A stretch of DNA of 64,000 bases, taken from the NCBI GenBank assembly GCA_951406725.2, contig OX597833.1, positions 31,868,001-31,932,000 on the forward strand, given 5' to 3'. Source of the DNA: Octopus vulgaris. Taxonomy: Eukaryota. The translations under genes and the position numbers were made by a program. Under the pieces are notes generated by a model. The model worked only from the letters and a program-made list of their open reading frames with translations. It was not told where the DNA came from and made no database searches. Shown here piece by piece: positions 9,597 through 49,264 of this stretch. Position 1 is the first letter of the stretch. Every line of letters starts with the position of its first letter.

Positions 9597-11103
9597 GGCA
9601 ATCTTTCGTTTTAACTCGAAGGTGTGTGCACTGTCTTACGGCGTTCGGTAAATTCCGAATAAAATTTTTTTGTCTATTTTTGTGGGTGGAAATGTACCTT
9701 TTGTTCGAAGTCAGCATAAAGTGAAAGAGAGGCAAAATGGACATGAAGGTGTATATGTGTTGATGGGGTGTGATATGTGTGTGTGTGTGTGTGCGCGCGA
9801 GAGAGAGAGAGAGAGTATTTCTTTATTCACCATAAAGTTGAGAAAAAGAGGGGACAATACGGAGATAGACAAAACAAACGTTGGGGTCTGGATATCGAAT
9901 GAGACGAAACGTATGAATAAACAAACAATTAAAATATATACTATTAAATGAGAATGAGTGATTAACAAAATAGAAAGTGGAGGACGCGGTTGACCCCACA
10001 AACCACATACTCACACTGAAGACTTTGCTTTCTCCTTTTTTACATTCTCGATTAAACAGGTTCTTTCACTCGCAACATACTTGCTATATACTTCCATCTT
10101 TTACGAAACACACTTTGCGACAGTCATTTCTTCTCCAGCCTTATTTTCCGTTTCATGTGGAAAACGAAAAAGTCGATTAGCTCAAGACTGGAGATAAACA
10201 TGCCTGTTGCAATTCCTTTCACTCTCGTCTTCCATACTACTTCTTTCGCCACAGCAACTACCGAGAGAAAACAGGCTCGCTCCTCCCTAATCAGGGAGGT
10301 CGGCGGAACTATCTTAATTACAGATTTGCTCGACAGTTGTACTCTTCTCGAATGCGACTGCAGGTGTTCGACATAAGCCCAGAGTTCAGTCACCTTGGGG
10401 CATTGCACAATCGCGTGCAGGACAGTTTCAATGTCCCTCTCACATCTTGCACAAACAGGCGAAGGTGCACACCCATGTCTAAAGAGCTTATCTCGAACCG
10501 GTAAAGCTCTTCTGTAACATTGCCAGGCCAGGGACTTTTGGTAATTATCCATAGGCCCCGGACCGAATGTTCTTCGGAACAGGCTGGCCAGTTGATTTTC
10601 GTCGAAGCCCAGGGTTTCTCCCAGGACGTCGTCACACTTAAACTCTACTAACCCTCTATAAAAGAACGAGGTTGTACCCCCGCCACCGGCGTTGCCCGAC
10701 TGGGAGAGAAGCACGAGTGCCTGATGGCACTCTACATGCCACACGCCCAACCTCGGTCTACACTTGATCCATGGGTTCAGTTTGGTAAACGATGTGAACT
10801 GTGGAAATAACAGCCTGACGAACGGAGACCACACCTGCTCACCGTCCAGGTAAAGCCAGATGTGCCTAAGTCTGAGCGCATGTCTGCGCATTTTTAGCCA
10901 CGGCAACCCTAACCCACCTTTCCGCGGCTTTTGGCAGCAAATAGAGCGCCTTACAAGCGCCCCTCTGCTGCCCCTCCACAAAAAGCGAAAGAGCAGAGAG
11001 AGAGAGAGAGTCACACAGAGTGACAGCATACATTCCTTATTTATTTTTTCTTGCATCTTTCTGTCAGAGAATGTGCGTGATTGACTGAGAGAGAAAGAAA
11101 GAG

Positions 11104-11138
<35 letters not shown>

Positions 11139-11856
11139 TGAGAGAAAGGGTGTGTTGCTGTGTGTATGTGACAGAGAGAGAGAGAGGGAGAGTGATAGCA
11201 TAGATTTTATTTACTTTTTCTCGCGTCTTTTTTTCAGTGAGTGTGATTGACTGAGAGAATGTGTCTTGCTCTGTATGCGTGAGAGAGAGGGAGAGATTGA
11301 TAGCGTAATTGTTTTTATTTATTTAGTTTTTCTCGCATCTTTTTTAGTGATGTATGAGTAATTGACTGAGAGAGAGAGGCATTGTCATATGTGTAACACC
11401 TCTCTCAGTCAATCACTCACACACTCGCTAAAGAAAAACAGATGCGAGAGAAACTAAAATAAATTTACGCTATCATTCTTTCTCTCTCTCTCTCTCTCAC
11501 ACACATACACACACAGCAACCCATCCTTTCTCTCTGACAACACCCCCCTCTCTCTCTCAGTCAATCACTCACACACAAAAAAGATGCGAGATAAAATAAA
11601 TAAATAAAATGTACGCGGTCTCTCTCTCTCACACACACACACAACATATACTTTCTGTCTCGCACTCCCCAGCAACACGTCCCTGTCCATTTCGTCTCTC
11701 TTTCACTTTATGCTAACTTGAAACAAAATGTATATTTCCACCCACAAAAAAAAACTGAAAAACATTTTTTACGGATTTTACCGAACGCTGTACCTTAACA
11801 GCTGATTGATCAGCTGTTCAGTTTGACATTTCTGCGAGTCATATCGAAAGATCGCC
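9597..11856. mobile_element. Merlin-type non-autonomous element (MITE) carrying a nested LINE
   Basis: TIRs of ~150-170 bp (GGCAATCTTTCG... / ...CGAAAGATCGCC); 8-bp TSD acccaagg/actcaagg; internally palindromic (GA/CA)-rich body at 11040-11640. Confidence 0.75.
9816..10994 (-). mobile_element. L1/Tx1-clade LINE 3' fragment (ORF2 C-terminus + 3'UTR)
   Basis: ORF 10124-11056: FLW, KPRKGGLGLP, LPVRDKL, CARC..ETVLHAIVQC (zf-RVT type); 3' end AATAAAGAAATA; (GA)n on both sides. Confidence 0.85.
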
Positions 11857-12479
11857 ACTCAAGGACTGACAGTAACTTTTCGAATACTATTTCAATGACA
11901 TCTAAACTCTCTCAACATTTGTCGTAATGCTATTTCAATAACACCCAAACTCTCTCAGTAAGAACAAAAGTTTGTTTGAAAAAAAAAAAAAAGACCACAA
12001 CAGATTTCGTCGTTTTTTATGTACAACTATTGACCTCCGACGCTAGAAATAGCAGCCAACATCCAACAACCAAGAGTCAGCTCCCCACATCAGCGAACAT
12101 ATTCACCTCCTAACACTTTGCTGTGTTGTGAAATTACAAGAAATTTTCTATTAACTTGGTTTTATATGGGAACACGTAGCCTAAACAATATTCAATTACC
12201 CATCAAAACCAACGTTGTAGGCTCAATATAGACATATTGAGTAAAAAAATAAGGTTGTGACCAGCTTGTTAGAAAGAGAGAGAGAGAGAGAACGACGAGG
12301 ATGTCTTTGAATGTGTGAAAAAATGCCATCACAGTCACACATCTTGGTTTGCTGTTAAATATTTTCTATTTATTGTGATATCAAAAAATAAATTATCTAT
12401 ATCTAGTTATCTTTTAAAATTTCCCTCCGTAATTTCTCATTTTCATTGTCAAGGTATTTTAAATAGCATTCATTTATAG

Positions 12480-13520
12480 GGAAAGTAAAAAGAAAAAGCA
12501 GGAGACTTCTTTTTTTCTTTACGTCTTTCAGTTTCACGTATTTAAAAAAAAAGTATTTACTTCCCAACACCTTTCCTTTCTGTCTTCGCAAGTCACCTTT
12601 CCATATCCCTTATTTACTCCGTAAAATCCTTTCACTTGTCGTAGTCTCTTTCATCTTCATCCATTTACTTTCGCTTCTTTTATTCATCCTATTCTCTTTT
12701 ATCGCCATCTATTTTTTTTTTTCATCTGAACCATTTTCGTTACCGACCTCTTTCTTTAATTCTTTCCTACTTACACTTTAATATCACTTATATTCCTTCT
12801 TTCTCTCCCCACCTCTTTACTATTATCTCTGCACTTTTTCTCGCTCACATTTTCCCAATTCAGTCTTTCCTCTTTTTCTTTTGATTTTTGTGATTTCTTT
12901 TTCCTATTAACAATCTCCTTTTCCATTTCATATATTCATTTTTTTTATATAGTTTTATTTTATTACGTTCCTTTTACATCTGATACCTTTCTTTAATCAT
13001 TTTCTTAAAAGAGAGCCTCCATTTCTTCCTTGTCTCCTCCTACCCATCTCTCTTTATTCTTTAAATATCTCTGCTTTCTCCTATCATTTATCCCTCTCTT
13101 TTCACATGACTGACTTGCCTTATCTTCTGCTTCTTCCTCCATAGTATTTTCTTCGAAACTCCCCTTCACTCTTTGCTCGCTCTATATTTCGAACTTGTCT
13201 CTTTTCACATCAACTTTTGATATAAAAAAAGACAATCGTTAATTTCCTCTCAAATCTCATTTTACGTCGTTAGTGTCACTCCTCCTTTCTCCTTCTCCTC
13301 TTCTACATTAACTCAATTTGTCATTGCACTTCCACCGACATCATCTTCACTTTAAATTATTCCTCCCTCCTACTCCCGCACATTAGTATTACCTCCACTT
13401 CACATTACTTCTTCCTCCTCACCAACATCACCTCAATTTCTTCTTCCATCTCTTTGTCTTTTCTGTTTCTCATACATTTCCACTCCCCTTGATTTACTTC
13501 TTTCTCTGCTTCGTTGCTTC
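12480..13520. repeat. CT-rich low-complexity polypyrimidine tract
   Basis: ~1 kb dominated by C/T on the plus strand, no clear periodicity and no ORF. Confidence 0.7.
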
Positions 13521-13677
13521 AACATATGCAGAACATCACACTATTGCTATTATACATGTATATCTAAACAGAGAGAGAGGGAGCGAGATCAGTGTCGTGT
13601 AGTAGTAATCCTTAGAGGTGTGTACACAGTGCTACCATATTTACTCAAATAAAAATGCAAATTTTAGATTATTTCTA

Positions 13678-13989
13678 GGCATAGTTTCGGTTGTAGTAGC
13701 ACAGATTTCCGTCGATTTCCGTAAAAAACTTTTATTTTTTTACATAAGTAATGAGAGCGAAAGAGACTAAGAGGAAGCGATTTTACGACGAGAAGGTTTC
13801 ACTTTGAAGTCGGCCTGTGTGTGTTTGATGGGGTGTGGGAGACAGACAGTATGTTGTGTAAGTGAAGTGCTTCTGTTAGTATGTGTGAAGAGACAGACAT
13901 ACATATACACATACACCGAGTAAAAAATTACTATGAATCGGCCATACATACATACATACACACACATACATAGATACATACACACACAC

Positions 13990-14022
<33 letters not shown>

Positions 14023-14647
14023 TGCAGACATACATATACACATACACCGAGTAAAAAATTATGAATCGGCCATACATACATACATACACACACACACATA
14101 CATAGATACATACACACACACACATACATACATACACACACACATACTTACACACACACACATACATAGATACATACACACACACACACATACATGCATA
14201 CATACATATACACATACACCGAGTAAAAAATTACTATGAATCGGCCATACATACACACACACACATACATAGATACATACACACACACACATACATACAT
14301 ACATACACACACACATACTTACACACACACACATAGATACATACACACACACACACACATGCATACATACATATACACATACACCGAGTAAAAAATCAGT
14401 TATCTCTCTCTTTCACACATTACTCTCTCTGTCTCTTCGCACACACTAACAGAAGCACTTCACTTACACAACATACTGTCTGTCTCCCACACCCCATCAA
14501 ACACACACAGGCCGACTTCAAAGTGAAACCTTCTCGTCGTAAAATCGCTTCCTCTTAGTCTCTTTCGCTCTCATTACTTATGTAAAAAAATAAAAGTTTT
14601 TTACGGAAATCGACGGAAATCTGATCTACGACATGCGAAACTTCGCC
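13678..14647. mobile_element. Merlin-type MITE with ~200-bp TIRs and internal tandem repeats
   Basis: Perfect 8-bp TSD TATTTCTA (13670-77 / 14648-55); GGC...GCC termini; 13701-13880 nearly perfectly inverted at 14446-14623; four CATACACCGAGTAAAAAA units embedded in (CA/CATA)n. Confidence 0.85.
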
Positions 14648-14913
14648 TATTTCTATAGATAATACGATTTCGACTTGACTTTGATTTTGAGTGTGTTGTA
14701 TATTAGAAAACAGATTACGACGAAGGAAATCAGTTCATGAAATTTCAATTTCTCACCATGAAAACGAATAAGATGTCGCTCACCCTTCGGTACTTATTTT
14801 TATCTAGCTAACTCCCATTATCACTATTCGCAGTGCCACATATCGATAAAACATACAGTATATTGTTATATCTACTTAATGTTGAGATAGCGTGTGCTTA
14901 TAAAAGTGTAGGT

Positions 14914-16895
14914 CAGTGTTGCTAACTTAAAATCAGAATTTTATGCTAAATTTCAATGGAAAAAATACAAAAAAAAAAAAAAATGCTAAATATGACAAAA
15001 AGAATGCTGAAGACTAATTGTATGAAAAAGCTTAATTTTTATTTACTTTCTTCAATTTTATTCAGCAATAATTTTTTGAACTTCACTGATTTGATCACTT
15101 TCAGCTGCAGTGCCTGGGTCTTGACTTCTGTATACATTCAAAGTCCCAATCTTGTTAATATGTGTTTTGGAATATCGAAGTTTTTGCAACATTTGCCATA
15201 TCTTTTCAGGCCATATTATATAGACAGTATTGATCTAAGCATAGGAAGATGCATTTTCCTTTTCAATTTTGATTTGATTACACCCATACTACTGAACAAC
15301 CGTTCAACGTCTGCATTTGTGTTTAGCAATGTCAATAGATTAATGGCAAAATTTGCAACATCTCCAAAAGGATTTCCTCCAGTAGCATCTTTATATTCCA
15401 AGACTTCCAGCTAGAATCCCTCAGTATTAGACGTATTTGTCCATTCAACTAAACAAATGTTATTAAACTGAATTTCAATTGAAGCAATTTTTTCTTCATT
15501 TAAATGCATTGCTTCTAAGATAGGTAAAATTAGCTCTTTGAAATGCTGCAAAATATTCTCTACTGAAAAACATTTGATATTCCTCAGTATATTATTTCCT
15601 GGCAAACGGTGCTTGAGCTCTTCATAAAGGCAGAGTAAAAAATTTTGTGCTCTTTTGCAAATATTATTTTCTTTGGTGGCTGTTACAGTCTTCTTGATAA
15701 TCATTTCTGCTATCTTTCTCTTGAACCTGTAGCCTAAATTTGGTTTAGGATCCAGAAAGTTTTCAATAGAAGCATCTGGATCAAGAGGATCAATTCTACA
15801 TGTTGGCAATACTATCATATTAGCAACAGATTTGATCAAATTTGAAAGATCTTCAAGTAATTTTATTCAAACATTTTATTCAATTCCTGAACATGTTTTA
15901 GAATTGGATGCAAAAAATAAAAGGTAAAGTTCACTCCTAGAATCACAAAACATTTCATGTAACGTTTGTGCTGTAAAGCATTTTTCTTTTGTAGTTGTAG
16001 TTTGGAAGTGAGTTTGCAATTCAAACTATTGGCTTAAAATTCTATTTACTGTTGGTTCTATTGACAGCCACCTAGTTGTACAAGAATTCATGATCTTCAA
16101 AGGCTCTTTATCATTGATAGTAAGGTGAAGTTGTTTGTAGGCATTTTGTCTTGTTGAAGAGGACCATTTATAGGTTTCAGATACTAAAAATTCTAAATTT
16201 ATGGGCAAACATTCAGCACAAGTGTGGGATACTGCCAATTGTAAAGAATGACATACACATCTAAATAGAAGTAATGATGGAACTTCTTTTAATTTCTGGA
16301 AAACACCATTGTTAACTCCTATCATTACTCTAGTATTGTCAGTTCCTATAGCCAGTAAATTTTTTATATCTAATTTCTTTGTCACTAATTCAATTTTTAA
16401 TGCATCTGCAATGCCATCTGCATCATATGTTTCTAAAGATACCATACTGAGATATGTACCACTTTTTTGTGAGTGTCACTATAATATATGATAACAATTC
16501 CTAACAACTTGTTTATCCATATATCATTGGATTCATCTAAAAACAAGCTAAATTTTCTAAGCTAAATTTTCTATCTCCTATATCAGAAATCAAATCTCCA
16601 TCAAAATATGGAGCTAGAACATTTCTCACAATATTTGCACGTTTTGTACAATGCAACTTCACTTTGGATATAATATCACTATCAGACATATAATTCTTAC
16701 ATAACTCTATTAAGTGATCACAGCTATTAAATGATTAGTGGCAACAAATAAACATTGCTAAATTTGCTTCAAGCATAAATGTCTTATCATTTTTGGTTTT
16801 AATAAAATTGGTAAGAGGAATCATTTGCTTTGGAATTGATGCCTTATGTTTCTTTGCTTCACAGTGGCTTACTAAAAGAGACTATTTTGCCAACA
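14914..16895 (-). mobile_element. hAT-superfamily transposon relic (transposase pseudogene, one TIR)
   Basis: Terminus CAGTGTTGCTAAC at 14914; minus-strand fragments IGTDNT, RCVCHSLQLA, TRWLS, NADVERLFS (C-terminal dimerisation region). Confidence 0.85.
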
Positions 16896-16954
16896 TTCCT
16901 TGTTTCTTTCTGTGTTGCTTTCTGTGGAAAAGCGTATGCTCGAAACGTTAAAGT

Positions 16955-18697
16955 GACTGCAATGGACATGTTGGACAACATACAGGGGGCTTCCATGACA
17001 TACATGGAGGCTATGGTTTTGGTTCCTACAATAAGGAGGGAACCAGGCTGCTGGAGTTCTGCGATGCAAATGATCTTATGGTTCGCAATACTAGTCACCT
17101 AGTCACCTACTGCACTGGCAAACACACTAGCCAAATTGACAACGAAAAAGGGAAAGATGGCTGCTTATAAATGCCAAAACCTTCCCAGGTGAAGAATGTA
17201 CCTTCAACATAGACTGGTAGTTAGCACTTCAGGATCAGGGCTAAATGGATGCCCAGAAGATGACCAGCATGGAGGAGATGGGTCTGGAAGCTTAAAGATT
17301 CTGCAAATGGACAAAGATTTAGAGACATATTACTTGAAGTCTTTAATGAAATAGAAGGGGATATAGCTTCATACAATGTAGAAGACAACTGGAGGTTTCT
17401 ACAGGACAGCCTGCTGAGGGTCACTGACCAGATCTGTGGATGGTGCGAAGTCCCCTCTCGACCCAAAATAACGTGGTGGTGGAACAATGTTGTTGACAGG
17501 GCTATTACAGAAAAGAAACAGGCTTGGAAGGACTGGAAGAACAGTGGTAGCAGGGAATTGTATCAGACTGCCAGAAGGGAAGCTAGGAGACAGGTTTATT
17601 TAGCCAGAGGGAGAGCAGATAAGAAAAAATTTACCAATGTTCTGTGCCGTGAGGACCAAAGACTTGAGGTGTTTCATGATGTAGGAGAGAAATGTGTCCA
17701 CGTGGATGGTGGTTCACTTGCACTAAACGAGGCTGCAAAGAGAGGTTTGGAGACGCCACTATGAAAGGTTGCACAATAAAGAAAATAAACGGGAGTAAGA
17801 GAGTCTGCTGAATGTTGACTCAAAAGAGGGACCAGCTATCTGAATTGACAGTACCTTGGTAGATAAAGCAATTAAGAGTATGAAGACAGAGAAAGCTTCC
17901 AGCCCATCAGGAATCACTGCAGAGATGCTCAAAATATTTGGCGGTGTTGGCTGTAGCCTAGTCACCCGTATAGTTAACCAGGTGATACACGAAGGAGTCA
18001 TACCCAATTACTGGTGTAGCAGCACTATAGTCAACTGCTACAAAGGTAAAGGTGACGCTTTAGATACAAATAATTACAGAAGTATTAAGTCGTTGGATCA
18101 GGTAATGAAGGTCATGGAGAGGGTCATAGCCCAACGAATTAGGGAGAGAGTTAGTTTAGATGAGATGCAGCTTGGGTTCGTGCCAGGGAAAAGCACCACT
18201 GATGCTATATTTCTGGTAAGACAACTGCAGGAGAAATACCTAGCCAAAGATAAACCTCTGTACCTAGCTTTTGTTGACATAGAAAAAGCCTTTGACAGGG
18301 TCCCCCAATCCCTTATCTGGTGGTCAATGAGGAAACTAGGGATAGATGAATGGTTAGTGAGAGCTGTGCAAGCTATGTACAAGGACACTGTCAGTAAGGT
18401 GAGGGTTGGCAACAAGTACAGTGAAGAATTCCGGGTAGAGGTAGGGGTCCACCAAGGTTCAGTCCTCACCCCCACCTATTTATCATAGTCCTCCTGGCAA
18501 TAACAGAGGAATTGAAGACAGTATGCCCCTGGGAGCTGGTCTATGCTGATGACCTTGCTCTAATTGCTGAGTCACTATCAGAACTAGAGGAGAAGTTTCA
18601 GGTGTAGAAACAAGGATTAGAATCGAAGGGCCTTGGAGTCAACCTAGCTAAAACCAAAGTCCTAATAAGTAGGAAGGCAGACAAATCACAAACGCCT
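16955..18697 (+). mobile_element. RTE-clade LINE fragment (endonuclease end to RT)
   Basis: ORF 17856-18488 YKGKGD..NYR, QLGF, AFVDIEKAFDRV, GVHQGS; YADD at ~18542. Confidence 0.9.
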
Positions 18698-19964: not shown

Positions 19965-20125
19965 CTAATTTTGGCACAAGGCCAGCAATTTTGAGGGGAG
20001 GGGGAAGTCAGTTACATCAATACCAGTGTTTGATTGATACTTATTTTACCAATACTGAAAGTATGAAAGACAAAGTTGACTTCAACGGTACTTGAACTCA
20101 GAACGTAAAAAGCCAGAACAAATGC
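19965..20125 (-). mobile_element. SINE fragment (same family as 1077-1298)
   Basis: Reverse complement matches ...gttcaagtaccgttgaagtcaactttgtctttcat...aaattgctggccttgtgccaaaatt. Confidence 0.65.
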
Positions 20126-23081: not shown

Positions 23082-23175
23082 TCTCTATATATAAAACTGA
23101 GAATGTGTGTCTGTCTGTGTGAATCCCTAAAACTTGAGAAATACACAACCAATTTCATTCAAATTTTACACATGC
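23082..23175 (+). mobile_element. Helitron 5' end fragment
   Basis: A|TCTCTATATATAAAACTGAGAATGTGTGTCTGTC..., identical start to the complete copy at 30750. Confidence 0.7.
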
Positions 23176-26100
23176 GCGGATTGTGACACAGATCATTCAC
23201 TAATAAGAAGTAGGGTGAGGATTCTGCCTAAAAAAGTTCATCACTCCAAGAAAATGGGCTGACCACGCATTAACACTGCCAGCACCTCAGACCCTACACT
23301 GCGACAATGTTTTGCTGTTTCTATTAAGGTTGCCCTCAGTAGCTGCCCAACCTCCTCTGCTGAAAGTAGGTGGAATTATATCAGGGAAGCTTGGTATACC
23401 ACATCAATAGATACTTTCGGCATGAGAGAAAGGCAAAACCCAGATTGGTTCAGTGCTGGGCTCTCAGAACTGGAAACAGTTATCGAAGTGACGCATGCAG
23501 CTCTGATGCAATACAAGAGTGATTATTCTACAAAGTCACTCGAAGAACTCAGAAAGGCTAGAAATAAAACCCAACTGACTGCCAGACGCTGTGCAAATAG
23601 GTATTGGCAGGAAATCTGTCAGAGTATCCAGTCAGCTGCTGACAGTGGCGACACCCGTGGGATGTATGCCAGTTTGAAGAAGACCCTTGGTCCATCCGCA
23701 ACCAAGTCAGCCCCATCTGAAATCAACTACTGGAGATCTAATCAAGGACCAAAGCAAGCAAATGGATGGAGTACTACCAGGATCTTTACTCACAGGAGAC
23801 CACAGTAGCTGAGGCTGCAATCGAGGGTGTCAAGATCTTGCCAGTCATGTGCGAACTTGACAGGCTGCCATCTATAGCAGAGCTCACCAAGGCTATTGAC
23901 TCCCTAGCAAGTAACAAGGCTCCGGGAAAAGACGGCATCCCCTTAGAGATCATCAAAACCGGCAAAAACACCATCCTGCTTCGGCACCTTCATGAGCTTC
24001 TGTGTCAGCACTGGGAAGAGGATACAGTCCCTCAGGATATACGGGATACTAACATCATTACGCTTTACAAAAACAAAGGTGACCGTGGTGATTGTAACAA
24101 TTACCGTGGAATATCTCTTCTAAGCACTGTTGGAAAGGCCTTTGCTCGCATTATCCTGTCCAGGTTACAACTGCTTGCTTCTTGAATTTATCCAGAATTG
24201 CAGTGTGGCTTTAGAAGAAGCAGATCAACTATTGACATGATATTCTCCATACGCCAACTTCAGGAGAAGTCCAGAGAGCAGAAAATGCCATTATATATGG
24301 CCTTCATTGATCTGACAAAGGCCTTTGACTTGGTAAGTAGAAAAGGCCTCTTCATCCTGCTCCAAAAAATCAGATGTCACCAAAGCTGCTGAGGATCATC
24401 AAATTTTCCCATGATGGTATGCAAAGCACCATACAGCACAATGGTTCAACATCAGTTGCCTTCCAAATGAAAAATGGGTTAAAGCAAGGTTGTGTCCTTG
24501 CTCCTACATTATTTGGCATCTTGTTCTCGCTGCTGTTGTCACATGCCTTTGAGACATCAGATGATGGAGTGTTTCTGCACAGTAGAAGTGATGGGAAACT
24601 GTTCAATCTCTCGCGTCTGCGTGCCAAGACCAAAATCAGAAGCGTCCTGATCAAGGAGATACTATTTGCTGATAATGCCACTCTGGTATCACACAGAAGA
24701 AGCCCTACAAAGGCTCATCAACTGTTTTGAGCAAGCATGTAGTGACTTTGGCTTAGTTATCAGCCCCAAGAAGACCAACATCATGGGTCAGGCTACATCG
24801 GACATCCCAAACATACATATTGGAGACCACAGACTACAGGAGGTGGAGAAGTTTACCTACGAGGGATGTTCAATAAGTAATGCCTCTGACCCACTTGCAG
24901 TTGTTTGATCTAGCTGAAATTTTGCATGTGCAATTATTTATATCTCTATAGAGTAAGTGGCAAATTACAGCTCTGAATTAATTGTGGTTTTTGATTTACA
25001 GGTGTTTGAACCGAGTCAAGTGTGAAATGGAGCCTGTTGAGTGTCGAGCAGTGATCCAGTTTTTGTATTTGAAAGGACGCACACCACGGGAGACTTTTGA
25101 TGAAATGAAAGTAACTTATGGTGATGATGCCCCATCATATGACCTTGTAAAACGCTGGCATCATGAATTCAAACATGGTCGGAACTCTGTGGAAACAGCT
25201 CCCAGATCTGGTCGCTCCCATTGATGAGGCATCTGTCCGTCAAGTTGAGGCTGCCATTTTGGAAGATCGACGCATAATTATTCGCCAAATAGCCCATGAG
25301 GTCAAGATTAGTACCGGGTCTGTGGAAACTATCATTCATGACTATTTGCATATGCAAAAGGTGTCTGCCAGATGGATTCCCAGGTTGCTCACGCCTTTCC
25401 AGAAGCAAGAACGCGTCGAGTGCTCGAGGGTGAATTTGGATATGTGCCAAGAAGATGAGTCAACATTTTTCAAAAGACTGATTACACAGGATGAAACCTG
25501 AGTCCATTACGATGATCCGGAGACCAAAGCCCAGTCAATGCAGTGGAAGCACCGTGATTCACCTCCTCCAAAGAAGGCAAGGGTGCAGCCCTCCGCTGGC
25601 AAGGTCATGCTCACAGTCTTCTGGGACCAGGACGGAGTAGTGATGACAGATTTCCTGACAAAGGGTACCACAATTGCAGGAGCCTATTATACTTCACTTT
25701 TGAGGAAATTAAGAGAAGTTATCAAAATCAAGAGGCGGGACAAGATCAGCAAATGCATCCTTCTCCTGCAGGACAACTCTCCGGTCCACAACTCGTGTGT
25801 CGCCAGATCAGAAGCACAGGCGTATGGCTATGAACTCCTCCCCATCCCCCCTACTTTCCTGACCTTGCACCCTCTGATTTTCACCTCTTCCCAATCATGA
25901 AGTTGTTTTTGAAAGGAAAGCGTTTCCCAGATGATGCAGCCTTGATTTCTGAAGTCACGTTGAGGTTGGAGGACCAAGCTGGGTTCTTCTACAAAAATGG
26001 TCTCCAGAGCCGCATCAAACGATGGGAGAAATGCGTAACTCTGGGTGGTTTCTATGTAGAAAAAGACTAATAACTGTGCCAAGTTTTGTTGCTCTACTGC

Positions 26101-28944: not shown

Positions 28945-30219
28945 GGTTGGCAACTAAGTACCTGCCAATTTTTTAACTTTTGGAATTTATTGTGTTTTTA
29001 AATGTTGGAATCTATTTTATTTGAGAATTCTATTTTTGAAACATTTTGGAATCTATTTTGTTTTTTTTCTAGTTAATTTTAGTTAATTTTTTGTTTATTT
29101 TCAGATCATTACAATGGAATGTTAAATTTAGAAAAACGATCATTTTCGACATCTCCTTCTTTTCACTTTTAATCAAGGTTCTTAGGTAGCAAAAGCTGCT
29201 CGCAACGTTTGTGCTGTGTATGGAGAGGGTGCCATAACTGAAAGAACCACTCATGATTGGTATGCCAAGTTCAAAAATGGAAATTTTGACCTCAAAGACG
29301 CACCTCATTCTGGCCGCCCAGTTGAGTTCGATGAAGAGTGATTAAACCGACTTTTTCAAACAAGTAGGGAACTGGTAGAGAAAATGGAATGCTCCCACAC
29401 TGCTATAGAGAAGCATCTTCACTCGATAGGAAAGGTTCAGAAGTATGGAGCATGGGTTCTGCATGCTTTAAGTGACAACAACAAAAATCAACGAGTCACG
29501 ATCTCTGCTGGTTTGCTTGCTCGTCACCACTCAACTCCTGGACACAAGCAATGATTTCTTTACAGAATCGTTACTGGTGACGAAAAATGGTTCCTGTATA
29601 TCAATATGAAGCAGTGTAGGGAAGGGCTTAGCCTCAGTAAACAAGCAACAACGCGCGTGAAACAAGATCTTCATCCGCATAAAATGATGTTGTGCATATG
29701 GTGGGACTGGGAAAGGATTATCCATTATGAATTGCTTGGACAGAACCAAACAGTCAACATGGAACTCTATGGTCAACAGATGGAATGACTCGACACAGCT
29801 GTTCAAGAGAGAAGACCTAATCGGTAGCATGGAGTTCTGCTGCACGACAACACCTGCCCTCATATCACCAATATGACCAAGGAAGACATTCAAATACATG
29901 GCTGCGAAATGCTGCCACACCCGCTGTACTCTCCTGATTTGGCACCAATGGATTTCCTCTTCTTTCGATTACTTTCAAATGCTATGCGTAGAGTTTCATT
30001 CAATACTGATGCAGAATTGAGAGCTTGGTTGGATCAATTTTTCAAGTCGAAATCGGGCGATTTCTAGCAATGAGGTATTGAAAATTTTGTTGAACATTGG
30101 GAAGAAGTTGTAAGCAACAGGGGGGGAATACATTATTGAATAATTAGTTGTTATTTTTTATTAAACCTTTTAAAAAATATAAATTTAAAAACACAGCGGG
30201 AACTTAGTTGCCAACCCAA
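28942..30219 (+). mobile_element. Full-length mariner (mellifera-like TIR), decayed
   Basis: TIR TTGGGTTGGCAACTAAGT / ACTTAGTTGCCAACCCAA inside (TA)n; HFRHLLLF, SGRP, WVLH, VTGDEKW, HDN, HPLYSPDLAPMDF. Confidence 0.93.
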
Positions 30220-33764: not shown

Positions 33765-33811
<47 letters not shown>

Positions 33812-37054: not shown

Positions 37055-37097
<43 letters not shown>

Positions 37098-37572: not shown

Positions 37573-37616
<44 letters not shown>

Positions 37617-41420: not shown

Positions 41421-42082
41421 GGTCCATCAGATCTGACTCTGTGTATGTGTGCGTGTGTGTGTCTTATATGTGTGTGTGTGTGTATATGTGCGTGCACATG
41501 CATATGTATGTATGTATGTTACTTTGGGGCTATATTTGAATTTTTTTACCTTTGCAGAATTCCAGTCAGTCACAAAGTATCAAGAGTCTTTTAAGTTGAG
41601 ATAACTTCTTGGGTGTTGATGTATTTATATAACATTTGAATAAATATATTTCTTATTTAATAAATATGTTTATTTCCCACTTTTGTCTTATATTTGTGTT
41701 ATATGTGTATGAGTGTGTGTGTGTGTGTGTGTGTTTGTAGAGGAAAAAAGATAACTTGTAAGATATGATTTATTTTTTGCACGAAATACGTATTTCAATG
41801 TATTTGCTACAGTTATATTTGGAAAGCAATCGATTGTAGCCAGATGCCTTCATGCACAAAGTTACATTTGCAGTCTCAATTTTGGCATATATATTAGATA
41901 ACCACTCAAACATGCACATAATCATACATTCATACACATCAGAAGAGATATGCAGGAATAAACCCAGCCATCACAAACCACACACAATGAATTACATGTT
42001 CATGCCTTTGTGTGTGTGTGTACACATACATACGTTTTAGTGTGGATCTTTGGGCATGTATGTAGGGAAGGGTAAGAATATA

Positions 42083-43070
42083 TCTTAATATATAAAGCAA
42101 AGTTTGTGTGAGTGCATGTGTGTGTGTGCATATGTTCCTTATGTATTCGAAAACTTAGTTATCAATTTTGACATATGAGGTATCAAAAGATTCAGTAATC
42201 TTTGCATTGTAAAAATTTAACATTATAATCTTTCTATAAGTCAACTATTGCAAATGACATTTTATACCACCTCTACTACCACCACCACGTCATATTTTCT
42301 ATATGAATGTGTATGTGTCTGTGAGTGTGTGTGTGTTTGTGCATTTGTTACTTACTTTAGACTGACTGAAAAGTACATGTGTGTGAGTGAATATGATGAT
42401 GTATGTGTGTGTGAATATACATACATTTTTGTGATGACTAACACACACACATCTAAAGAGAGAGATGCACACACAAAGGGACAGAGATATGCCTGAGGCA
42501 TGCGTGAATGTATGTCTTTCTGTATCTGTCTTAGTATATGTATGTATCATATGGGGTATCAAAAGATCCAGTAATCTTTCAGGTACCAAATAAACTTTAT
42601 TTTCATTTACATACTTGCATTATAAAAATTTAGCTGTAAACGGCACTTTATACCATGACAACGACAATGATGATGAAGTCACATTTTCTATATGAGTGTG
42701 TATGTGTCTGTGAGTGTGTGTGTGTGTGCTTGCATGTTCGTTACGTACTTTAGGCCGATGACTGAGAAGTATATGTGGGTGAGTGTATGTGATGGTGTAT
42801 GTGTGTGTGAATATACATACATTTTTGTGATGATTGACACACACAGAGGGACAGAGATACACCTGAGGTATGTGTGAATGTATGTCTCTTTGTGCCTGTC
42901 TTAGTATATGTATGTGAGTGTATGTCACTGTATGTGTGTGCGACTGTATGTGTGATAATTTTTATACGTTAGGCCTCAGACAATTAAACACACACACACA
43001 TACATATACTTGTGTGTATGAGTGTGTATGTGTCTGGGAGTGTGTGTGTGCATTTCTGCGTTTGTTACAT
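42083..43070 (+). repeat. Element with Helitron-like 5' end and ~375-bp tandem duplication
   Basis: A|TCTTAATATATAAAGC start; units begin ggtatcaaaaga..cagtaatcttt at ~42179 and ~42555; partial third unit at ~43015. Confidence 0.55.
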
Positions 43071-43529
43071 CTATAATAAACTATAGTAAGGGACATTTTT
43101 CACCATTTTAATGAGCCTGCATCAGATGAAGTAGCCATCCTTATGGTTGGTGATTCCCATGAAAATCGTGATATTCCCATTCATGCTTGAGATAACACCC
43201 TTAAACGTGTTTCAGACACTCATCTCTCTTATGATGCTCTTCACCTCCTCAAAGGTGATTCAAGCGCATGCACACACACTGCTTTGTATATGTCTTTTTC
43301 AGATTCATGAGCATGTACGCAAAATTATGGACGTATACCTCTGCACATAATTGTAATGTATGTACATACTCCTGAAGGCTTTCTGGGACTGAAGGAAATT
43401 AAAACTGCAATTGTAACATTATTTTACACACAAAGCATAAGGACCTGCAGCCTCCAAGCATGCAACCCCAAATATGTTTTTCTTTTTAGAAGCTGAAAAC
43501 ATCCCTCCAACTTCCTTCTTAGCTCTACA

Positions 43530-46399
43530 AGCCCAGAGCTGCCACAATCAATGTTAGTACAATGGAAGGTAGATCTGGAGAGATAGTTGAGATGCTTGAG
43601 TAGAGACATGTAGATGTACCCTGTGTCCAATAGGTATGATAGAGGGGAACCTCAGCTAGACTGCTTACAACAAAGAGAATAGACAGAATTTTTTTCTGGA
43701 TAGGCAACCATGATGGTTTAGGTGGTGTGGGTATTCTACTAGCAAAGAAATGGGTAGATAAGGTGATCAAGGTAGTCAGGGTATGTGATAGAATTCTTAA
43801 TCTAAGAATAGCCTTGTTTGATGTAACTGTGTCAGTTGCCGCTGCATGCCTGATTTGCAGGTACTTGAAAAAAATCGCTATGAATTCCTTCTGAGGACTG
43901 CTTTGATGACAAAAGACGACTACATTCTCATCACGATGGGATTTCAATGGACATGTTGGAAAACACTGATGGATTTCAGGGTGTGCATAGAGGCTATGAC
44001 TTTGGTTCCAGAAATGACGAGGGGGAAAGGCTGCTGGAGTTTTATGTTGCTAATGGTCTGCAACACCAACTTCAGAAAACGTGTCAACCATCTGATCATG
44101 AAGCAATCTGGGGAAGCATACCAGCCAGATTGATTATATATATCCTCACCAACACAGGGCAGATATATGCTCATAAAAGCAAAATCTTTCCCAGGTGAAG
44201 TATGTATAACCCAACATAAGCTAGTGATTAGTGACTTCAGGCTTAGGGCCAGAAAGATCCAGAGATACAAGCTAATTGTCAAAATTCAAGGATCTTTCAA
44301 GTGGGCAGAGATTTAAAGATGTCCTTAATGAGGCCTTTAATGAGAAGGAGGAAATGATAGAGACATATGATATAAAGGGCAACTGGAAGTTCCTATGAGA
44401 CAATCTACTAAGGGCAACAAACCAAATTTGTGGCTGGAGCAAAACCTCTGTTAGACCAAGGTCGAGGTGGTGGTGGAACAGTGATGTTGACAGGGCCATA
44501 AAAGAGAAGAGACAGATCTGGACTAGATGATGAAAATTATAGAGCGACATATATATTTCTTTATTGCCCACAAGGGGCTAAACATAGAAGGGACAAACAA
44601 GGACAGACAAAGTGATTAAGTCGATTATATCGACTTCAGTGCGAAACTGGTACTTTATTTATCGACCCTGAAAGGATGAAAGGCAAAGTCGATCTCGGCA
44701 GAATTTGAACTCAGAAGGTAACGACAAACGAAATACCGCTAAGCATTTCGCCCAGCATGCTAACGTGTCTGCTAGCTTGCCACCTTTTATAGAGAGACTT
44801 ATAGCCCAATTAATTAGGAGCAGAGTTAGGCTAGATGAAATGCAGTTCAATTTCATCTAGGGAAGAAGCAGTATTGATACTATTTTCATAATAATGCAAT
44901 GGCAAGAAAAGTAATTACTTAAGAATAAACCATTATACTTGGCAGTTGTTGATCTCAAGAGAATGCTTTTGATAGAGTACCCTGCTTTGTGATATGGTGG
45001 GCTCTGAAGAAGCTAGGGATCGAAGAATGGCTTGTGAAAGCTGTACAGGTCATGAGACCGTCAGTAAGGTGAGAGTTAACCATGAGTACAGCGGAGAATT
45101 TGGTGTACAAGTGGGTGTTCATCAAGGCTCAGTTCTCAATCCCCTGCTTTTCTTCATTATCCTCCAGGCCATAACAGGGTAGCCACTTGGAACTACTATA
45201 TGCTTATGATCTTCCTCTCATAGCAGATTCCATATCAGAGCTAGAAGAGAAATTCCTGGTGTGGAAGCAAAACCTAGAATCTAAGGGCTTTAAAGTTACA
45301 TTAGTAAATGTTAAGGTATTTTTAAGCAAGAAAATGCACAAGATCCTACTCTCTTCAGGTAGGTCGCCTTGTTCAATTTGTAGGAAAAATGTAGGCAGGA
45401 ACTCCACTTGGTGTACACAGTGTAAGCTATGGTCACACAAGAGGTGCAGTGGATTAATAGGAAGATTATCAGAGAAAGTAGTGTTTGTATGTGGAAGGTG
45501 CACAAGATCCATAAAAACTACAGAGACTTGGGAAATTGATTCCCTCAAATGGCCAGGTGGCTCATTAGAGGTAGCAGATAATTTCTGCCACCTAGTAGAC
45601 CAAATTAGTAGTGGGGAGGATATACAGAGTATGTAATAGCTAAAATAAGAATAGGATGGAAGAAATTCAGAGAGTTGTTACCACAGTTGGCTATGAAAGG
45701 AAGATTGTATGATGCATGTGTATGGATAGCAATTCTACGTGGTAGTGAACATGGGCCATGAATGCAGAGGACATGTGAAGGCTGGAGAGGAATGGGGCTA
45801 GTATGTTCTGCTGGATTTGTAATGTATGTATACATGTTTGACAGAGTGCTAGTGTATTGAGACAGAAGTTAAGCATAAGAGGAATTAGATGTAGTGTGCA
45901 AGAGAGCAGACTGTGCTGGTTGGGTCATATGACGCAGATGGGTGCCAACAGCTCTAGAGAAGTGCCAATCTCTCAAAATAGATGGAACACATGGAAGTGG
46001 GTGACCCAGGAAGACATGGGACAAAGTACTGAAGGATGACCTCAGGGTGCTGAACCTTTCAAACAAGACTACAGAGGATCGAGATACTTGGCACCTTGCT
46101 GTACTCAAGAAGACCTGTACCCAACAGCAAAAGTGTTAAGGTCACTCTCCTTGATGAAGAGGATTGGCCTGCAAAAGTCCTTGGATAGGCAATGTAAAAA
46201 GCACTTGTGCCTGTGCCATGTAAAAGAACCCAGCTCACTCTGTATATTGGTTGACATTAGGAAGGGCATCCAGCCATAGAAACCATGCCAAATCAGACTG
46301 GAGCCTGGTATAGCTCCCCAGCTTGTGAGCTTGGGTTCAACCGTCCAGCATGGACAAACATGCCAGCAGTCAACAGATGTCAAATGATGATGCTGACGA

Positions 46400-46400
<1 letters not shown>
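43530..46400 (+). mobile_element. RTE-clade LINE (relative of 16955-18697) with 3'UTR
   Basis: Endonuclease remnants (GGVGILL, DFNGHVG), GVHQGS, LLYAYDL, C.IC...WCTQC..W.HKRC insert, RLCWLGH; 3'UTR GAAGGGCATCCAGCC...(GAT)n. Confidence 0.85.
44554..44786 (-). mobile_element. tRNA-derived SINE nested in RTE, with an L1/Tx1-like 3' tail
   Basis: Head GGTGGCAAGCTAGCAG..GAGTTCAAATTC; TSD ttatagagcgacatata / ttatagagagacttata (15/17); tail TGTCCCTTCTATGTTTAGCCCCTTGTGGGCAATAAAGAAATA. Confidence 0.9.
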
Positions 46401-46442
<42 letters not shown>

Positions 46443-47021
46443 ACATATAATTAATTTTTAGTGTAATATATGGATTCACAGAATCATGTGGCTATCACAG
46501 AAAGCTCCTCTAGCAGACTCTGTTAACAGTCCACATAGTAACTGAATGCAATGACGTATAATGCAGAGTTCTATGCAGCTGAAATCCAGAAGATCCAATT
46601 GATGAAAATATTTCATGAAGCGTATACGAACCATAAAACGTTTGAGATATGAGAGGTGAATATATTTATTTAATCACTTGTTATCTTTAGTATTATGGCT
46701 GCTTCACAGCCTTCAACATATAATTTCATTGCATAGTAAATGATTTTACATGTCTGTACTAATATGCATGCTATGTATTGTACAGTTCAATTGTACATTT
46801 ACAAATCAATGCAGGTAAAGAAGGGTAGTGCATCAGATCACCAGAATATCTTGGTTACAACAACACTGGTCTGATGATAACAAGTAGTTAAAATAGATAG
46901 TCCCAACATTTTATGGTTCACATACACGCACACACACACACACATGCATGCACGCACGCACACAAACACACACACACACACACACATTATAGATGCATAT
47001 AATTGTATATGTAAATGTATA

Positions 47022-47587
47022 TCTGTATATATAAAACTGAGAATGTGTGTCTGTCTGTCTGTCTGTCTGTGTGTTTCCCTAAAACTTGAGAACTACACAA
47101 CCAATTTCATTCAAATTTTACACATGCCTTACTTAGGGTACATGTAGTGTCACGGGCAAAAAAGTGTTCAACTTCTTGCCTAGGGCGAGCCCATAGCAAT
47201 ATCATATCTTCTCCACTATTTCAGTCTTATGTGTTAAAAGTGAAACAAAAACATCTCTCTATTTTATGTCAGATACTTTCACTTTAACAATAAAAATTAG
47301 AGATAATAATAATGATTGAATTATATGTAGTAAGTAATAATTAAAATCGAACTAAAGTATATAATAATTAAATCGTAACATAACAATTAAAAGTAAAAAT
47401 AGCAATTGGTATAAAATTGCATCAATGACTTGAACTTGAATAAGTGGTTTCACATGAATGGGAATAAATTAAAAATAAAATTAAAGTGCAGAAATGGAAT
47501 AGTCCAGATGGAGCTGTGCACATACCCTTTACCAGAGCTTTTACGTTAGATTATCTGCTAATTAGCTAGCATTAAGTATCTATATGA
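47022..47587 (+). mobile_element. Helitron 5' half, cut by the ORF1-only element
   Basis: Colinear with 30750-31640 (minus its 30985-31320 insert) up to agtatctat. Confidence 0.8.
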
Positions 47588-49264
47588 AGTTTGGCTGTAG
47601 TCGTTTTTTGGAACCTGTGTGTTTTGCCTGTTATTGTTTATTAAATTTTGTTAAACGGTATTGTTGAATTTTGTCTGTCTGTATTGAGACAGACAAGGAA
47701 AAAACGGTTTGCCCCTCCCTAAGGGAGAAAATGGCAAAGAAAAATGTTTTTACAAGCCTCAGTGAGTCGGACCTGTCGATCTCTGAGGAGGAACTGGAAA
47801 AGGCAGTGAGGAAATTGGACAGAGCACTTGGAGAAAAAACAACATACGCGCAAGCGACAAAGTCAATGGAAAAAGAGATAGACCTGGCTAAGTTGCCAGG
47901 TTATCAAGAATTTGTTATGAAGGTCGGTGGTGAAGTTGAATTGTCACCGCCAAGGAAAAGAAGAGACTGGTATGAGAAGAGGACCATTACGCATAGAGTA
48001 TTCGCCAACGAAAAAAGGAGAATAGAGTTGGTCGGCATGGAAATGGTAGAGGAAGCTCTGAGAATGACAGAAGAGGAGGTAGCGTTTCTCGCAAGAGGCG
48101 TTGGGTTCGGCACCGTGGTTGTACAATTTAAAACCGAAAAAGTGGCAAGGCGAATGGCGGCGAAAACAATGAAGTCGGAGAAGATATTCCTTCTTCCCTC
48201 GTATCTGGGAAGGAGGACGACCTGGATCAGGGTGGAGGGAATACCACCAGACATAGACGGAGAGTGGATTGTGGAAGCCATCATCAGTGCTAATGAAGAT
48301 AAGGTGGACATTCTTCATGCCATGGTGAAGGACGAGGGAGGTTGGAGAGGAGCAGTACTGGAGATGAATGTCTTGTCGGAATCGGAGGTGTTGGAACAAC
48401 TGGCCGAGAATATAACAATGGGAAACATCATTATGAGAGTATGGGTGGAGGGCAGAGCTCCTCGTTGTTACAAATGCGGCTTGAAGGGCCACATAAAAGC
48501 TAACTGTCCTCCCCCAACAAAAAAACAAAGAAAAGAACCAGCAAGAGAGGTAGAGGAGCCCCAGGAGGAGCAGAATACAATGGAAGAGAAGCAAGTGGAC
48601 GAGGAGGAATTACCAGCAGAATGGGAATCTATGGGAAGAAGGAGGAAGAGAAGGAGAAAAAAGGCAAACTGTTCTGAACCCCAACCCACCCCATCACCAC
48701 CTGCACCCTTTGTGGCCCAGGTGTCTGCAGGGGAAGCCCTGCAGACACTGAATCCACCCGTTCCCCACCAACAAGAAAACAAAAAAAAAAAAAAGATAAC
48801 ACAGACACACAGGATAACTTTAAAAATTCTCGTCCCCATATATTAGGTGTAATAAATAAGGAAGAAATACGTGAAATATTGAGGGACTGGGGAAAGGTGG
48901 AATTGCAAGACAGCTGGGATATGGCGGGGTTGATGTATGTAGTAATATCAGAGGACCAAGAAAAAGAACTCAAGGAAAAACTTTAAAAAAGTTATAAATT
49001 GATTACGAAAACAATTGAACCGGATAAGTGATATGAAGTGGAAGAAATATATGGGATGAAACTGAAGGACTACATGTTTTTTATACCGATATAGGGAAGA
49101 AGGACAGGTAAGTGATGTTATCGGATGGGGCCGTTAACATCGCTCTCATTTCTCATTTTCACAATTTTTCATCTTTCATACGTTTCTGTATTTTTGTGAT
49201 GTTTTGTGTCCCCAATGTTTGTAATGTCCCCCTCTATGTAAGCCCTTTATGGGTAATAAAATAT
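47588..49264 (+). mobile_element. ORF1-only non-autonomous non-LTR retroelement (half-LINE)
   Basis: Short 5'UTR, gag-like ORF1, no endonuclease/RT, pyrimidine-rich 3'UTR ending GCCCTTTATGGGTAATAAAATATA. Confidence 0.75.
47731..48846 (+). CDS. Tx1/L1-type ORF1p: RRM-like region + CCHC zinc knuckle
   Basis: MAKKNVF...; IRVEGIPPDI; VWVEGRAPRCYKCGLKGHIKANC (CX2CX4HX4C); basic RRRKRRRKK; a frameshift in the A-run at ~48781-48794 probably hides an extension to ~49000 (..HILGVINKEEIREILRDWGKVEL..). Confidence 0.8.
   Translation: MAKKNVFTSLSESDLSISEEELEKAVRKLDRALGEKTTYAQATKSMEKEIDLAKLPGYQEFVMKVGGEVELSPPRKRRDWYEKRTITHRVFANEKRRIELVGMEMVEEALRMTEEEVAFLARGVGFGTVVVQFKTEKVARRMAAKTMKSEKIFLLPSYLGRRTTWIRVEGIPPDIDGEWIVEAIISANEDKVDILHAMVKDEGGWRGAVLEMNVLSESEVLEQLAENITMGNIIMRVWVEGRAPRCYKCGLKGHIKANCPPPTKKQRKEPAREVEEPQEEQNTMEEKQVDEEELPAEWESMGRRRKRRRKKANCSEPQPTPSPPAPFVAQVSAGEALQTLNPPVPHQQENKKKKKITQTHRITLKILVPIY

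What the first reader, a model, noticed from the sequence alone, without database searches (positions are those of the whole stretch)
9816..49264. LINE, SINE and ORF1-only element share one 3' recognition module
Seen, three 3' ends. Tx1-like LINE (minus strand, 9816-9872): TTTGTCTATCTCCGTATTGTCCCCTCTTTTTCTCAAC-TTTAT-GGTG-AATAAAGAAATA. SINE (minus strand, 44554-44611): TTTGTCTGTCCTTGTTTGTCCCTTCTATGTTTAGCCC-CTTGT-GGGC-AATAAAGAAATA. ORF1-only element (49225-49264): TGTCCCCCTCTATGTAAGCCC-TTTAT-GGGT-AATAAAATATA. Each has a TGTCCC-box, a 4-bp stem with a YTTRT loop and then AATAAA. The stems differ yet mostly still pair (GCCC/GGGC, GCCC/GGGT, CAAC/GGTG with one mismatch). Known: stringent LINEs recognise 3' stem-loops that partner SINEs copy. 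Inference: one L1/Tx1 machinery serves two kinds of parasite. The SINE at 1077-1298 has the same head but a different tail, which suggests tail swapping.
Basis: partly seen in the sequence, partly recalled or inferred. Interest (0 to 1): 0.85.

Follow-up and report, generated by a model that had tools for sequence, protein, structure and literature searches.

The report
Octopus LINE hairpin borrowed by parasites
A whole group of related octopus LINE retrotransposons, a very abundant SINE and an element that codes only ORF1 all end in the same small, co-varying hairpin, which likely lets the LINE enzymes copy the two parasites, though likely not the enzyme of the (TC)n-targeting LINE that lies in this window.

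Summary
The three 3' ends are as described and align beyond AATAAA better than all 140 other AATAAA sites in the window. The module is lineage-wide. Seven sampled L1/Tx1-like LINE families, the SINE (at least 95,589 exact tail copies) and a real 1.6-kb ORF1-only family (dN/dS 0.04-0.32 between subfamilies) carry a 3-5-bp hairpin beside AATAAA. Stems are rewritten but paired (GCCC/GGGY, GCCT/AGGT, GACA/TGTC, GATA/TATC): 95.8% of cells paired, all 4 pairs with two-sided changes.

It sits in (TC)n (203 of 262 tails), the SINE does not (0 of 95,589), and its family hairpin has another register (ACC-TTAT-GGT). The parasites' tails match sister families better: ORF1-only to family D (98% over 40 nt), SINE to family C (88%). 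No exact SINE donor was found. The 'different-tail' SINE type keeps the same CTTGT loop in a new stem. Two thirds of SINE copies have AGTAAA, which argues against a polyadenylation role.

Verdict: stringent LINE-SINE tail sharing, a known kind, here in an animal L1/Tx1-like lineage where I found no published case. Recognition by ORF2p is inferred, not assayed.

The parts
9816..10994 (-). 5'-truncated copy of LINE family A (full length about 5.5 kb; ORF1 with zf-CCHC, ORF2 with endonuclease, RT and zf-RVT), flanked by (TC)n on both sides
9816..9872 (-). LINE A 3' module: TGTCCCC box, hairpin at 9828-9840 (family form ACC-TTAT-GGT; this copy has a C>T change), AATAAAGAAATA
44554..44786 (-). SINE with tail type T1, about 230 nt; hairpin GCCC-CTTGT-GGGC at 44566-44578; 17-bp target-site duplication (15 of 17 identical) at 44537-44553 and 44787-44803
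47600..49264 (+). ORF1-only non-autonomous LINE, about 1.66 kb, with no ORF2 remnant
47731..48846 (+). ORF1 (371 aa from ATG; CCHC knuckle; 38% identical to LINE A ORF1; under purifying selection between subfamilies)
49225..49264 (+). ORF1-only 3' module; hairpin GCCC-TTTAT-GGGT at 49242-49254, then AATAAA
47012..50251 (+). Abundant host repeat into which the ORF1-only element is inserted (junctions at 47599 and 49264); 28 of 29 other host hits show the empty site. Helitron-like by its ends is my recalled label, not tested
1077..1298 (+). SINE with the same head and body and tail type T2; decayed hairpin at 1272-1284 (family form TGGC-CTTGT-GCCA); no AATAAA
19955..20145 (-). Second T2 SINE copy, with intact hairpin TGGC-CTTGT-GCCA at 19972-19984 (boundaries approximate)

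Best explanation
A radiation of related octopus L1/Tx1-like LINE families ends in a conserved, co-varying 3' hairpin beside AATAAA, which likely serves as the RNA signal that their ORF2 protein binds to start target-primed reverse transcription; the SINE and the ORF1-only element carry the same module and are likely copied in trans by non-microsatellite sister families (C/D-like), not by the (TC)n-specific family A of this window. Shown: shared tails, covariation, family-specific targets, SINE target-site duplications, selection on ORF1 of the ORF1-only family. Inferred: ORF2p binds the hairpin; the parasites gained the tail by template switching or internal deletion; the ORF1-only element supplies its own ORF1p in cis and borrows only ORF2p; the identity of the helper families.
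For: Hairpin next to the signal in copies collected by sequence homology: A 27/29, B 30/30, C 24/26, D 18/19, E 14/17, G 8/8, I 6/12, SINE T1 35/36, ORF1-only 20/24, against 17/198 background sites. Covariation on 18 subfamily representatives: 95.8% of 72 cells paired, 18 two-sided changes, score 0.891 against 0.261 shuffled (0/500) and at most 0.132 when slid. Without T2 and T3, 13 two-sided changes remain in 3 of 4 pairs (read). Similarity between parasite and LINE is confined to the last 40 nt: ORF1-only O2 vs D1 98% then 45-65%; SINE vs C 88% then 45-55%. ORF1-only subfamilies with saturated synonymous sites (dS about 2) keep 90% identity in the last 40 nt. 25 of 40 full-length SINE copies have non-microsatellite target-site duplications of about 13-24 bp. 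64,063 of 95,589 SINE tails have AGTAAA, T2 and T3 lack AATAAA, and no sampled family ends in a long poly(A). An RTE-like LINE end in the window lacks the module (one element, my label).
Against: No binding or retrotransposition assay. The stems are only 3-5 bp (-1.4 to -6.6 kcal/mol for 24-26-nt pieces). Representatives were registered by eye on the loop, four with 4- or 6-nt loops (A, D3, E1b, G) were left out of the alignment, and the shuffle does not control for relatedness. No LINE with the exact SINE T1 tail was found in three pattern searches, and none with a T2 or T3 tail among the fetched loci (8 of 8 motif matches had a SINE body). Other 3' UTR bins of the ORF1-only subfamilies are also 78-90% identical, so there the tail is not the only conserved part. 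The ORF1-only ORF1 is just 29-39% identical to any sampled LINE ORF1 and its sister group is unresolved. I could not show that parasites and families C/D share target sites. Family I has the hairpin in only 6 of 12 copies.
Confidence: 0.7

Rival explanations
1. One machinery, that of the window's LINE family A, mobilises both the SINE and the ORF1-only element.
For: A shares the TGTCCCC box, the end AATAAAGAAATA and, in its long variant, TTTGTCTGTCC with the SINE. A's ORF1 gives the best score to the ORF1-only protein (159 bits against 107-142 for other single HSPs).
Against: A is (TC)n-specific on both flanks; SINE 0 of 95,589 and ORF1-only 0 of 28 in (CT)n. A has 262 exact tail copies and a different hairpin register. 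Tail scores to A (26-38) are below those to C and D (43-68).
Confidence: 0.05
2. The hairpin is a 3'-end processing or stability element of the LINE transcript tied to the AATAAA signal; the parasites inherited it passively and are mobilised by relaxed, sequence-independent ORF2p.
For: The hairpin always lies 0-2 nt before AATAAA in the LINEs. Mammalian and most plant L1-clade LINEs are relaxed (PMC3747384, passages).
Against: The SINE, presumably a Pol III transcript, keeps the stem while two thirds of copies change AATAAA to AGTAAA; T2 and T3 keep loop and pairing without AATAAA; elements end a few nt after the signal without long poly(A).
Confidence: 0.17
3. The similarity is descent without present function: tails were captured once from ancestral LINEs and the stems look paired because of G/C runs and hand registration.
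For: Short stems; C-rich and G-rich runs pair easily; the LINE-SINE score is reached by about 1.4% of shuffles; T2 and T3 could be convergent.
Against: Stems without C/G runs (GACA/TGTC, GATA/TATC, GCCT/AGGT) pair in the same register; tail conservation outlasts synonymous saturation.
Confidence: 0.08

Closest known systems
Stringent LINE/SINE pairs with shared 3' stem-loop (eel UnaL2/UnaSINE, zebrafish ZfL2, bivalve CR1/L2 pairs; PMC4176376 abstract start and passages, PMC4824008 passages)
   Same: SINE tail matches the last tens of nt of a LINE and folds into a stem-loop with compensatory changes; tails are exchanged on one SINE body.
   Different: Those helpers are L2, CR1, RTE and similar clades; here the LINE is L1/Tx1-like, the stem is only 3-5 bp with a YTNRT-type loop beside AATAAA, and function is untested.
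Monocot L1 lineage with ZmSINE2/3 and Chlamydomonas L1-1_CR/SINEX-3 (Ohshima; PMC3747384 passages and Table 1, PMC3472496 passages)
   Same: L1-clade LINE lineage with a conserved last 45-50 nt, hairpin with compensatory changes and conserved loop, shared with SINEs.
   Different: Plants and an alga only: that review counts 3 L1-tailed SINEs among more than 800 L1-clade LINEs and lists no animal case. Those elements end in poly(A) or poly(T); these have no long homopolymer tail and are target-specific.
Tx1 clade: Kibi, Koshi, Tx1-Mar with SINEU (Kojima 2015; PMC4494074, parts 1-3 of 5 read)
   Same: Microsatellite and transposon targeting; family A has Kibi's (TC)n target; a SINE mobilised in trans by Tx1 is precedented, and shared targets were the test used there.
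   Different: SINEU has poly(A) and no LINE-matching tail was found for SINEU-1; here the tail is shared. (ATT)n and (ATCT)n targets are not among those named in the parts read. Clade membership was not tested against reference sequences.
ORF1-only non-autonomous LINEs: HAL1 (L1), HeT-A (Jockey), Ag-Sponge (CR1) (PMC5786205, section 23)
   Same: Encodes ORF1p only, keeps a LINE-type 3' end, ORF1 maintained by selection.
   Different: Derived from a Tx1-like lineage with a CCHC-type ORF1; its tail appears to track sister LINE families rather than the ORF1 donor; no poly(A).
Octopus tRNA-derived SINEs OR1/OR2 (Ohshima and Okada 1994; seen only as citations in PMC4824008, PMC4758252, PMC5804259)
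   Same: Abundant octopus SINE with tRNA-like head; these families may be the same elements (recalled, not tested).
   Different: The passages read call OR1/OR2 CORE-SINEs and name no partner LINE; no sequence was available to compare.

Membership tests
L1/Tx1 group of LINEs | ORF2 with APE-type endonuclease, RT and C-terminal zinc-binding domain | tested here: met
   Exo_endo_phos, RVT_1, zf-RVT in the 1138-aa ORF2; best solved relative is human L1 ORF2p, E 3e-69, against 6e-22 for R2
Tx1 clade | ORF1 with CCHC zinc knuckle (recalled feature) | tested here: met
   zf-CCHC above cut-off in LINE A ORF1, just under cut-off in the ORF1-only protein
Tx1 clade | Target-sequence preference | tested here: met
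   A (TC)n 30/30 at 3' side and 10/10 at 5' side; B (ATT)n 30/30; G (ATCT)n 8/8
Tx1 clade / Kibi | RT phylogeny grouping with reference Tx1, Kibi or Koshi | not tested
   No named reference sequence was in hand; the tree holds only octopus families and database hits
Stringent LINE/SINE pair | SINE 3' tail homologous to LINE 3' end | tested here: met
   88% over the last 40 nt to family C, 85% to B, 80% to I, 68% to A
Stringent LINE/SINE pair | Stem-loop with compensatory changes | tested here: met
   short stem, hand-registered
Stringent LINE/SINE pair | A specific partner LINE with the same tail | tested here: inconclusive
   No exact donor for T1; D1 matches ORF1-only O2 at 98% over 40 nt
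Stringent LINE/SINE pair (with window LINE A as partner) | Parasite shares the helper's insertion signature | tested here: not met
   A 203/262 followed by CTCTCT; SINE 0/95,589; ORF1-only 0/28
Stringent LINE/SINE pair | Tail required for ORF2p binding and retrotransposition | not testable with these tools
   needs a cell or in vitro assay
HAL1-type ORF1-only element | Dispersed family with ORF1 and no ORF2 | tested here: met
   many 1.6-kb copies with common ends; no ORF2 match better than E 0.5 in 3 of 3 copies tested
HAL1-type ORF1-only element | ORF1 kept under purifying selection | tested here: met
   dN/dS 0.04-0.32 between subfamilies, 0.38-0.55 within; ORF1 clade 100/100 including O. 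sinensis P0121
HAL1-type ORF1-only element | Independent retrotransposition with target-site duplications | tested here: met
   duplications read by eye at L009, L014, L015/L018, L017 and the L019 group; absent in the window copy
HAL1 proper (mammalian L1-derived, poly(A); recalled) | L1-type ORF1 and poly(A) tail | tested here: not met
   only zf-CCHC found; ends a few nt after AATAAA
tRNA-derived SINE OR1/OR2 | tRNA-like head and identity to the published consensus | tested here: inconclusive
   A- and B-box-like motifs by eye only; ARAGORN found 0 tRNAs in 4 loci; published sequences not available

The most novel reading that the evidence does not exclude
The hairpin is an address code across a radiation of target-specific Tx1-like LINEs: each family's ORF2p reads its own stem and loop variant, and the octopus SINE body and the ORF1-only element have repeatedly swapped tails (T1, T2, T3; D-like and C-like ends) to change helper and with it genomic target. 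This would be an animal L1-group lineage that stayed stringent, drove one of the most abundant octopus SINEs, and still has intact enzymes (ORF2 of 1138-1149 aa) for testing.
Probability: 0.3. Interest if true: 0.72.

Novelty: new variant of a known kind. Interest (0 to 1): 0.52.

Why it matters
L1-group LINEs in animals are the textbook relaxed, poly(A)-reading type, and the survey I read lists only three L1-tailed SINEs, all in plants or an alga (PMC3747384). A lineage-wide co-varying hairpin in octopus L1/Tx1-like LINEs would be an animal case of stringent recognition in this group and bears on whether stringency is ancestral. It also points to the likely driver of a SINE with about 100,000 or more copies whose partner the papers read do not name. 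Several families have intact ORF2 with different targets and hairpin variants, a natural panel for testing RNA and DNA specificity separately. The principle itself (shared tails, tail exchange, ORF1-only elements) is known.

Tried and rejected
Exact donor of SINE tail T1: three genome pattern searches gave 6 matches that look SINE-derived, 132 matches of which the 100 listed are rearranged SINEs or one 45-bp satellite, and 0. Donors of T2/T3: none in the fetched loci; genome count only (8,658). ORF2 remnant in the ORF1-only 3' region: none. Rfam on 11 loci, including family E flanks that looked hammerhead-like by eye: one weak chance hit, no hammerhead. ARAGORN on 4 SINE loci: none. Protein atlas for ORF1 residues 45-270: CCHC/RRM-type clusters at 0.90-0.92, a lead only. 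Homologue search for the ORF1-only protein: 1 hit, Octopus sinensis. Earlier scan findings: nothing. Paper searches: octopus+SINE+Tx1 (5 papers), HAL1 terms, Tx1+SINE+stem-loop+stringent (3), MetaSINE+octopus (4), Tx1/Kibi/Koshi, Twhin+octopus (0), Tx1+3 UTR+stem-loop (0), SINE+Tx1+partner LINE (6), octopus+OR2 (2); none of the listings or passages seen describes this pairing. Repbase, Dfam, SINEBase, the 1994 OR1/OR2 paper and all supplements were not seen and may already record it. My guess that the SINE body is a Meta domain was not confirmed. The repeat finder on the whole window was swamped by microsatellites. No Tx1 reference tree, covariance model, structure prediction or complex job was run.
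Full report
Observation. The three quoted 3' ends are present as written. A motif scan of the window returns these three and four unrelated sites. Scores over the 40 nt before AATAAA (26, 35, 39) exceed those of all 140 other AATAAA sites in the window; 0 of 2000 shuffles reach the two scores involving the ORF1-only element, while 27-29 of 2000 reach the LINE-SINE score. The genome is 2.8 Gb in 227 contigs; the only homologue found for the ORF1-only protein is from Octopus sinensis and the best named ORF2 hit is from Argonauta, so I read it as an octopus.

The LINE (family A). The window copy is 5'-truncated (9816-10994, minus). Full copies are about 5.5 kb, with a 446-aa ORF1 frame (zf-CCHC) and a 1138-aa ORF2 frame (endonuclease, RT, zf-RVT); the closest solved structure by sequence is human L1 ORF2p. 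All 30 sampled copies are followed by at least three CT units and 10 of 10 long copies have (TC)n on the 5' side too, so (TC)n is the target, as published for Kibi (PMC4494074).

Other LINE families. Searches with database ORF2 proteins and with fragments found in flanks gave: B (ORF2 1145 aa, 69% to A, (ATT)n, tandem arrays), C (68% to A), D (67%), E (about 50%), G (1149 aa, (ATCT)n) and I (older, (ATCT)n). In an ORF2 C-terminal tree C and D are sisters (100/99), and A, C, D and E group at 94/98 (no reference Tx1 sequences). Every family has a hairpin 0-2 nt before AATAAA. By one fixed rule it is found in A 27/29, B 30/30, C 24/26, D 18/19, E 14/17, G 8/8 and I 6/12 of copies in which the signal was found (11 of 151 LINE copies had no signal in the searched interval and were dropped), against 17 of 198 background sites. 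Queries for A, C, D, E and I included the tail, so some selection for intact tails is possible; B and G came from protein queries.

Covariation. Stems differ while pairing holds: GCCC/GGGY, GCCT/AGGT, GCC/GGC, GACA/TGTC, GACC/GGTT, GATC/GGTC, GATA/TATC, GGCC/GGCT, TGGC/GCCA, AGGC/GCCT. For 18 representatives with 5-nt loops, 95.8% of 72 cells pair, all four pairs show two-sided changes, and the covariation score is 0.891 against 0.261 +/- 0.060 (0 of 500 shuffles) and at most 0.132 when slid. With the four 4- and 6-nt-loop forms added, 56 of 60 cells in 15 distinct stems pair against 36.7 shuffled. Limits: rows were registered by eye on the loop, relatedness is not controlled, and stems are short. 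Only loop positions 2 and 5 (T) are invariant.

The SINE. The T1 tail has at least 95,589 exact 25-nt matches, with 0 for the reversed control; these pattern counts are floors. 25 of 40 full-length copies have non-microsatellite target-site duplications, many starting with TAT; the window copy has one. None of the 95,589 is followed by CTCTCT, against 203 of 262 for LINE A; in the sampled loci 1 of 36 has (CT)3 nearby. The tail is closest to C (88% over 40 nt), then B (85%), I (80%) and A (68%); no exact donor was found. 64,063 copies have AGTAAA in place of AATAAA. The same head and body, up to about position 166, also carry tails T2 and T3 (8,658 exact matches together, many in tandem arrays). 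About 7 of 12 T3 copies seen are followed by (ATT/ATC)n, but five came from loci chosen next to the (ATT)n family B, so this is only a lead.

The ORF1-only element. It is a dispersed family of about 1.6 kb with common ends, no ORF2 remnant, and an ORF1 homologous to the LINE ORF1s (38% to A, 29-39% to the others). Its ORF1 sequences form one clade (100/100) that includes the O. sinensis protein and show dN/dS of 0.04-0.32 between subfamilies, so the protein is maintained. Of 18 exact matches to one subfamily's 34-nt tail, one (L112) is an ORF2-bearing LINE of family D, 15 have ORF1-only ORF1 matches in the locus and two have no protein match; identity to D1 is 98% in the last 40 nt and 45-65% upstream. 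Several insertions have target-site duplications (by eye). The window copy has none; it lies in an abundant host repeat whose site is empty in 28 of 29 other hits and shares both junctions with at least seven copies, so it was probably spread by the host. Copy counts of this family therefore overstate independent insertions. None of 28 distinct 3' flanks has (CT)3.

Mechanism. Most likely (0.7) ORF2p of this LINE lineage binds the terminal hairpin and primes reverse transcription a few nt past AATAAA, and the parasites gained the module by template switching or deletion and are copied in trans by non-microsatellite families such as C and D. The target is set by the helper's endonuclease (PMC4494074, introduction), which is why family A is excluded. 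A 3'-processing role (0.17) fits the position beside AATAAA but not the SINE's loss of that signal. Inherited similarity without function (0.08) does not explain the rewritten stems. Family A as sole helper: 0.05.

Comparison. It works like the stringent L2/CR1/RTE pairs and like the monocot L1/ZmSINE case (PMC3747384, PMC3472496, passages and Table 1). SINEU/Tx1-Mar is the Tx1 precedent but without a shared tail (PMC4494074, parts 1-3 of 5). HAL1, HeT-A and Ag-Sponge are the ORF1-only precedents (PMC5786205, section 23). An O. vulgaris repeat annotation lists 13 recently active L1-Tx1 families and 893 unclassified SINE families, and the passages seen name no pairing (PMC13282606, part 1 of 3 and term search). 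Nine literature searches found no description of this octopus pairing; Repbase, Dfam and supplements were not seen. Verdict: real, broader than reported, wrong helper; a new variant of a known kind; interest 0.52.

Noticed in passing
L157-L186; G000:C4:93.80-93.83 Mb, C47, C50: Young (ATT)n-targeting LINE family B with many intact 1145-aa ORF2 copies forms head-to-tail arrays of 5.87-kb period; one hit lies about 13-15 kb before the window on the same contig (L169).
   Followed up: partly
L237-L246: Young (ATCT)n-targeting family G with many intact 1149-aa ORF2 copies; hairpin TAGCC-CTGTGT-GGCTA.
   Followed up: partly
L251-L270: Family E subfamilies are followed by a recurring non-microsatellite sequence containing CTGATGA...GAAAC, hammerhead-like by eye; Rfam gave no such match.
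   Followed up: partly
window 49270-50100: The host repeat itself carries a decayed ORF1-like piece (34% to the ORF1-only protein); other host copies carry family C or D LINE 3' ends next to host sequence, by capture or preferred insertion.
   Followed up: partly
G000:C11:2.701-2.706 Mb: 45-bp tandem satellite made from the SINE T1 tail.
   Followed up: no
G000:C1:5.38-8.51 Mb and C1:0.65 Mb: 115-bp tandem arrays containing the T2 tail and 184-bp tandem arrays of the T1 SINE.
   Followed up: no
window 48779-49000: A second frame after the A tract continues into a protein-like segment also seen in subfamily L018, so the true ORF1 may be longer and frameshifted in this copy.
   Followed up: no
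L015, L017, L018, L020, L106, L107: ORF1-only copies often sit inside or next to the 5' part of related LINE or ORF1-only elements, including ORF1 of a further unsampled family.
   Followed up: partly
window 23174-23556 and 51205-51587: Two inverted copies of a 383-nt repeat, 95% alike, probably another dispersed element.
   Followed up: no
window 17264-18488, 23263-24730, 45175-45636, 55765-57270, 59444-59806: Decayed RT fragments of other LINE clades (RTE-like by my reading); the one 3' end seen, near 57230-57270, lacks the module.
   Followed up: partly
window 25502-25900 and 29531-29968: Mariner-like transposase fragments by eye from the ORF list.
   Followed up: no
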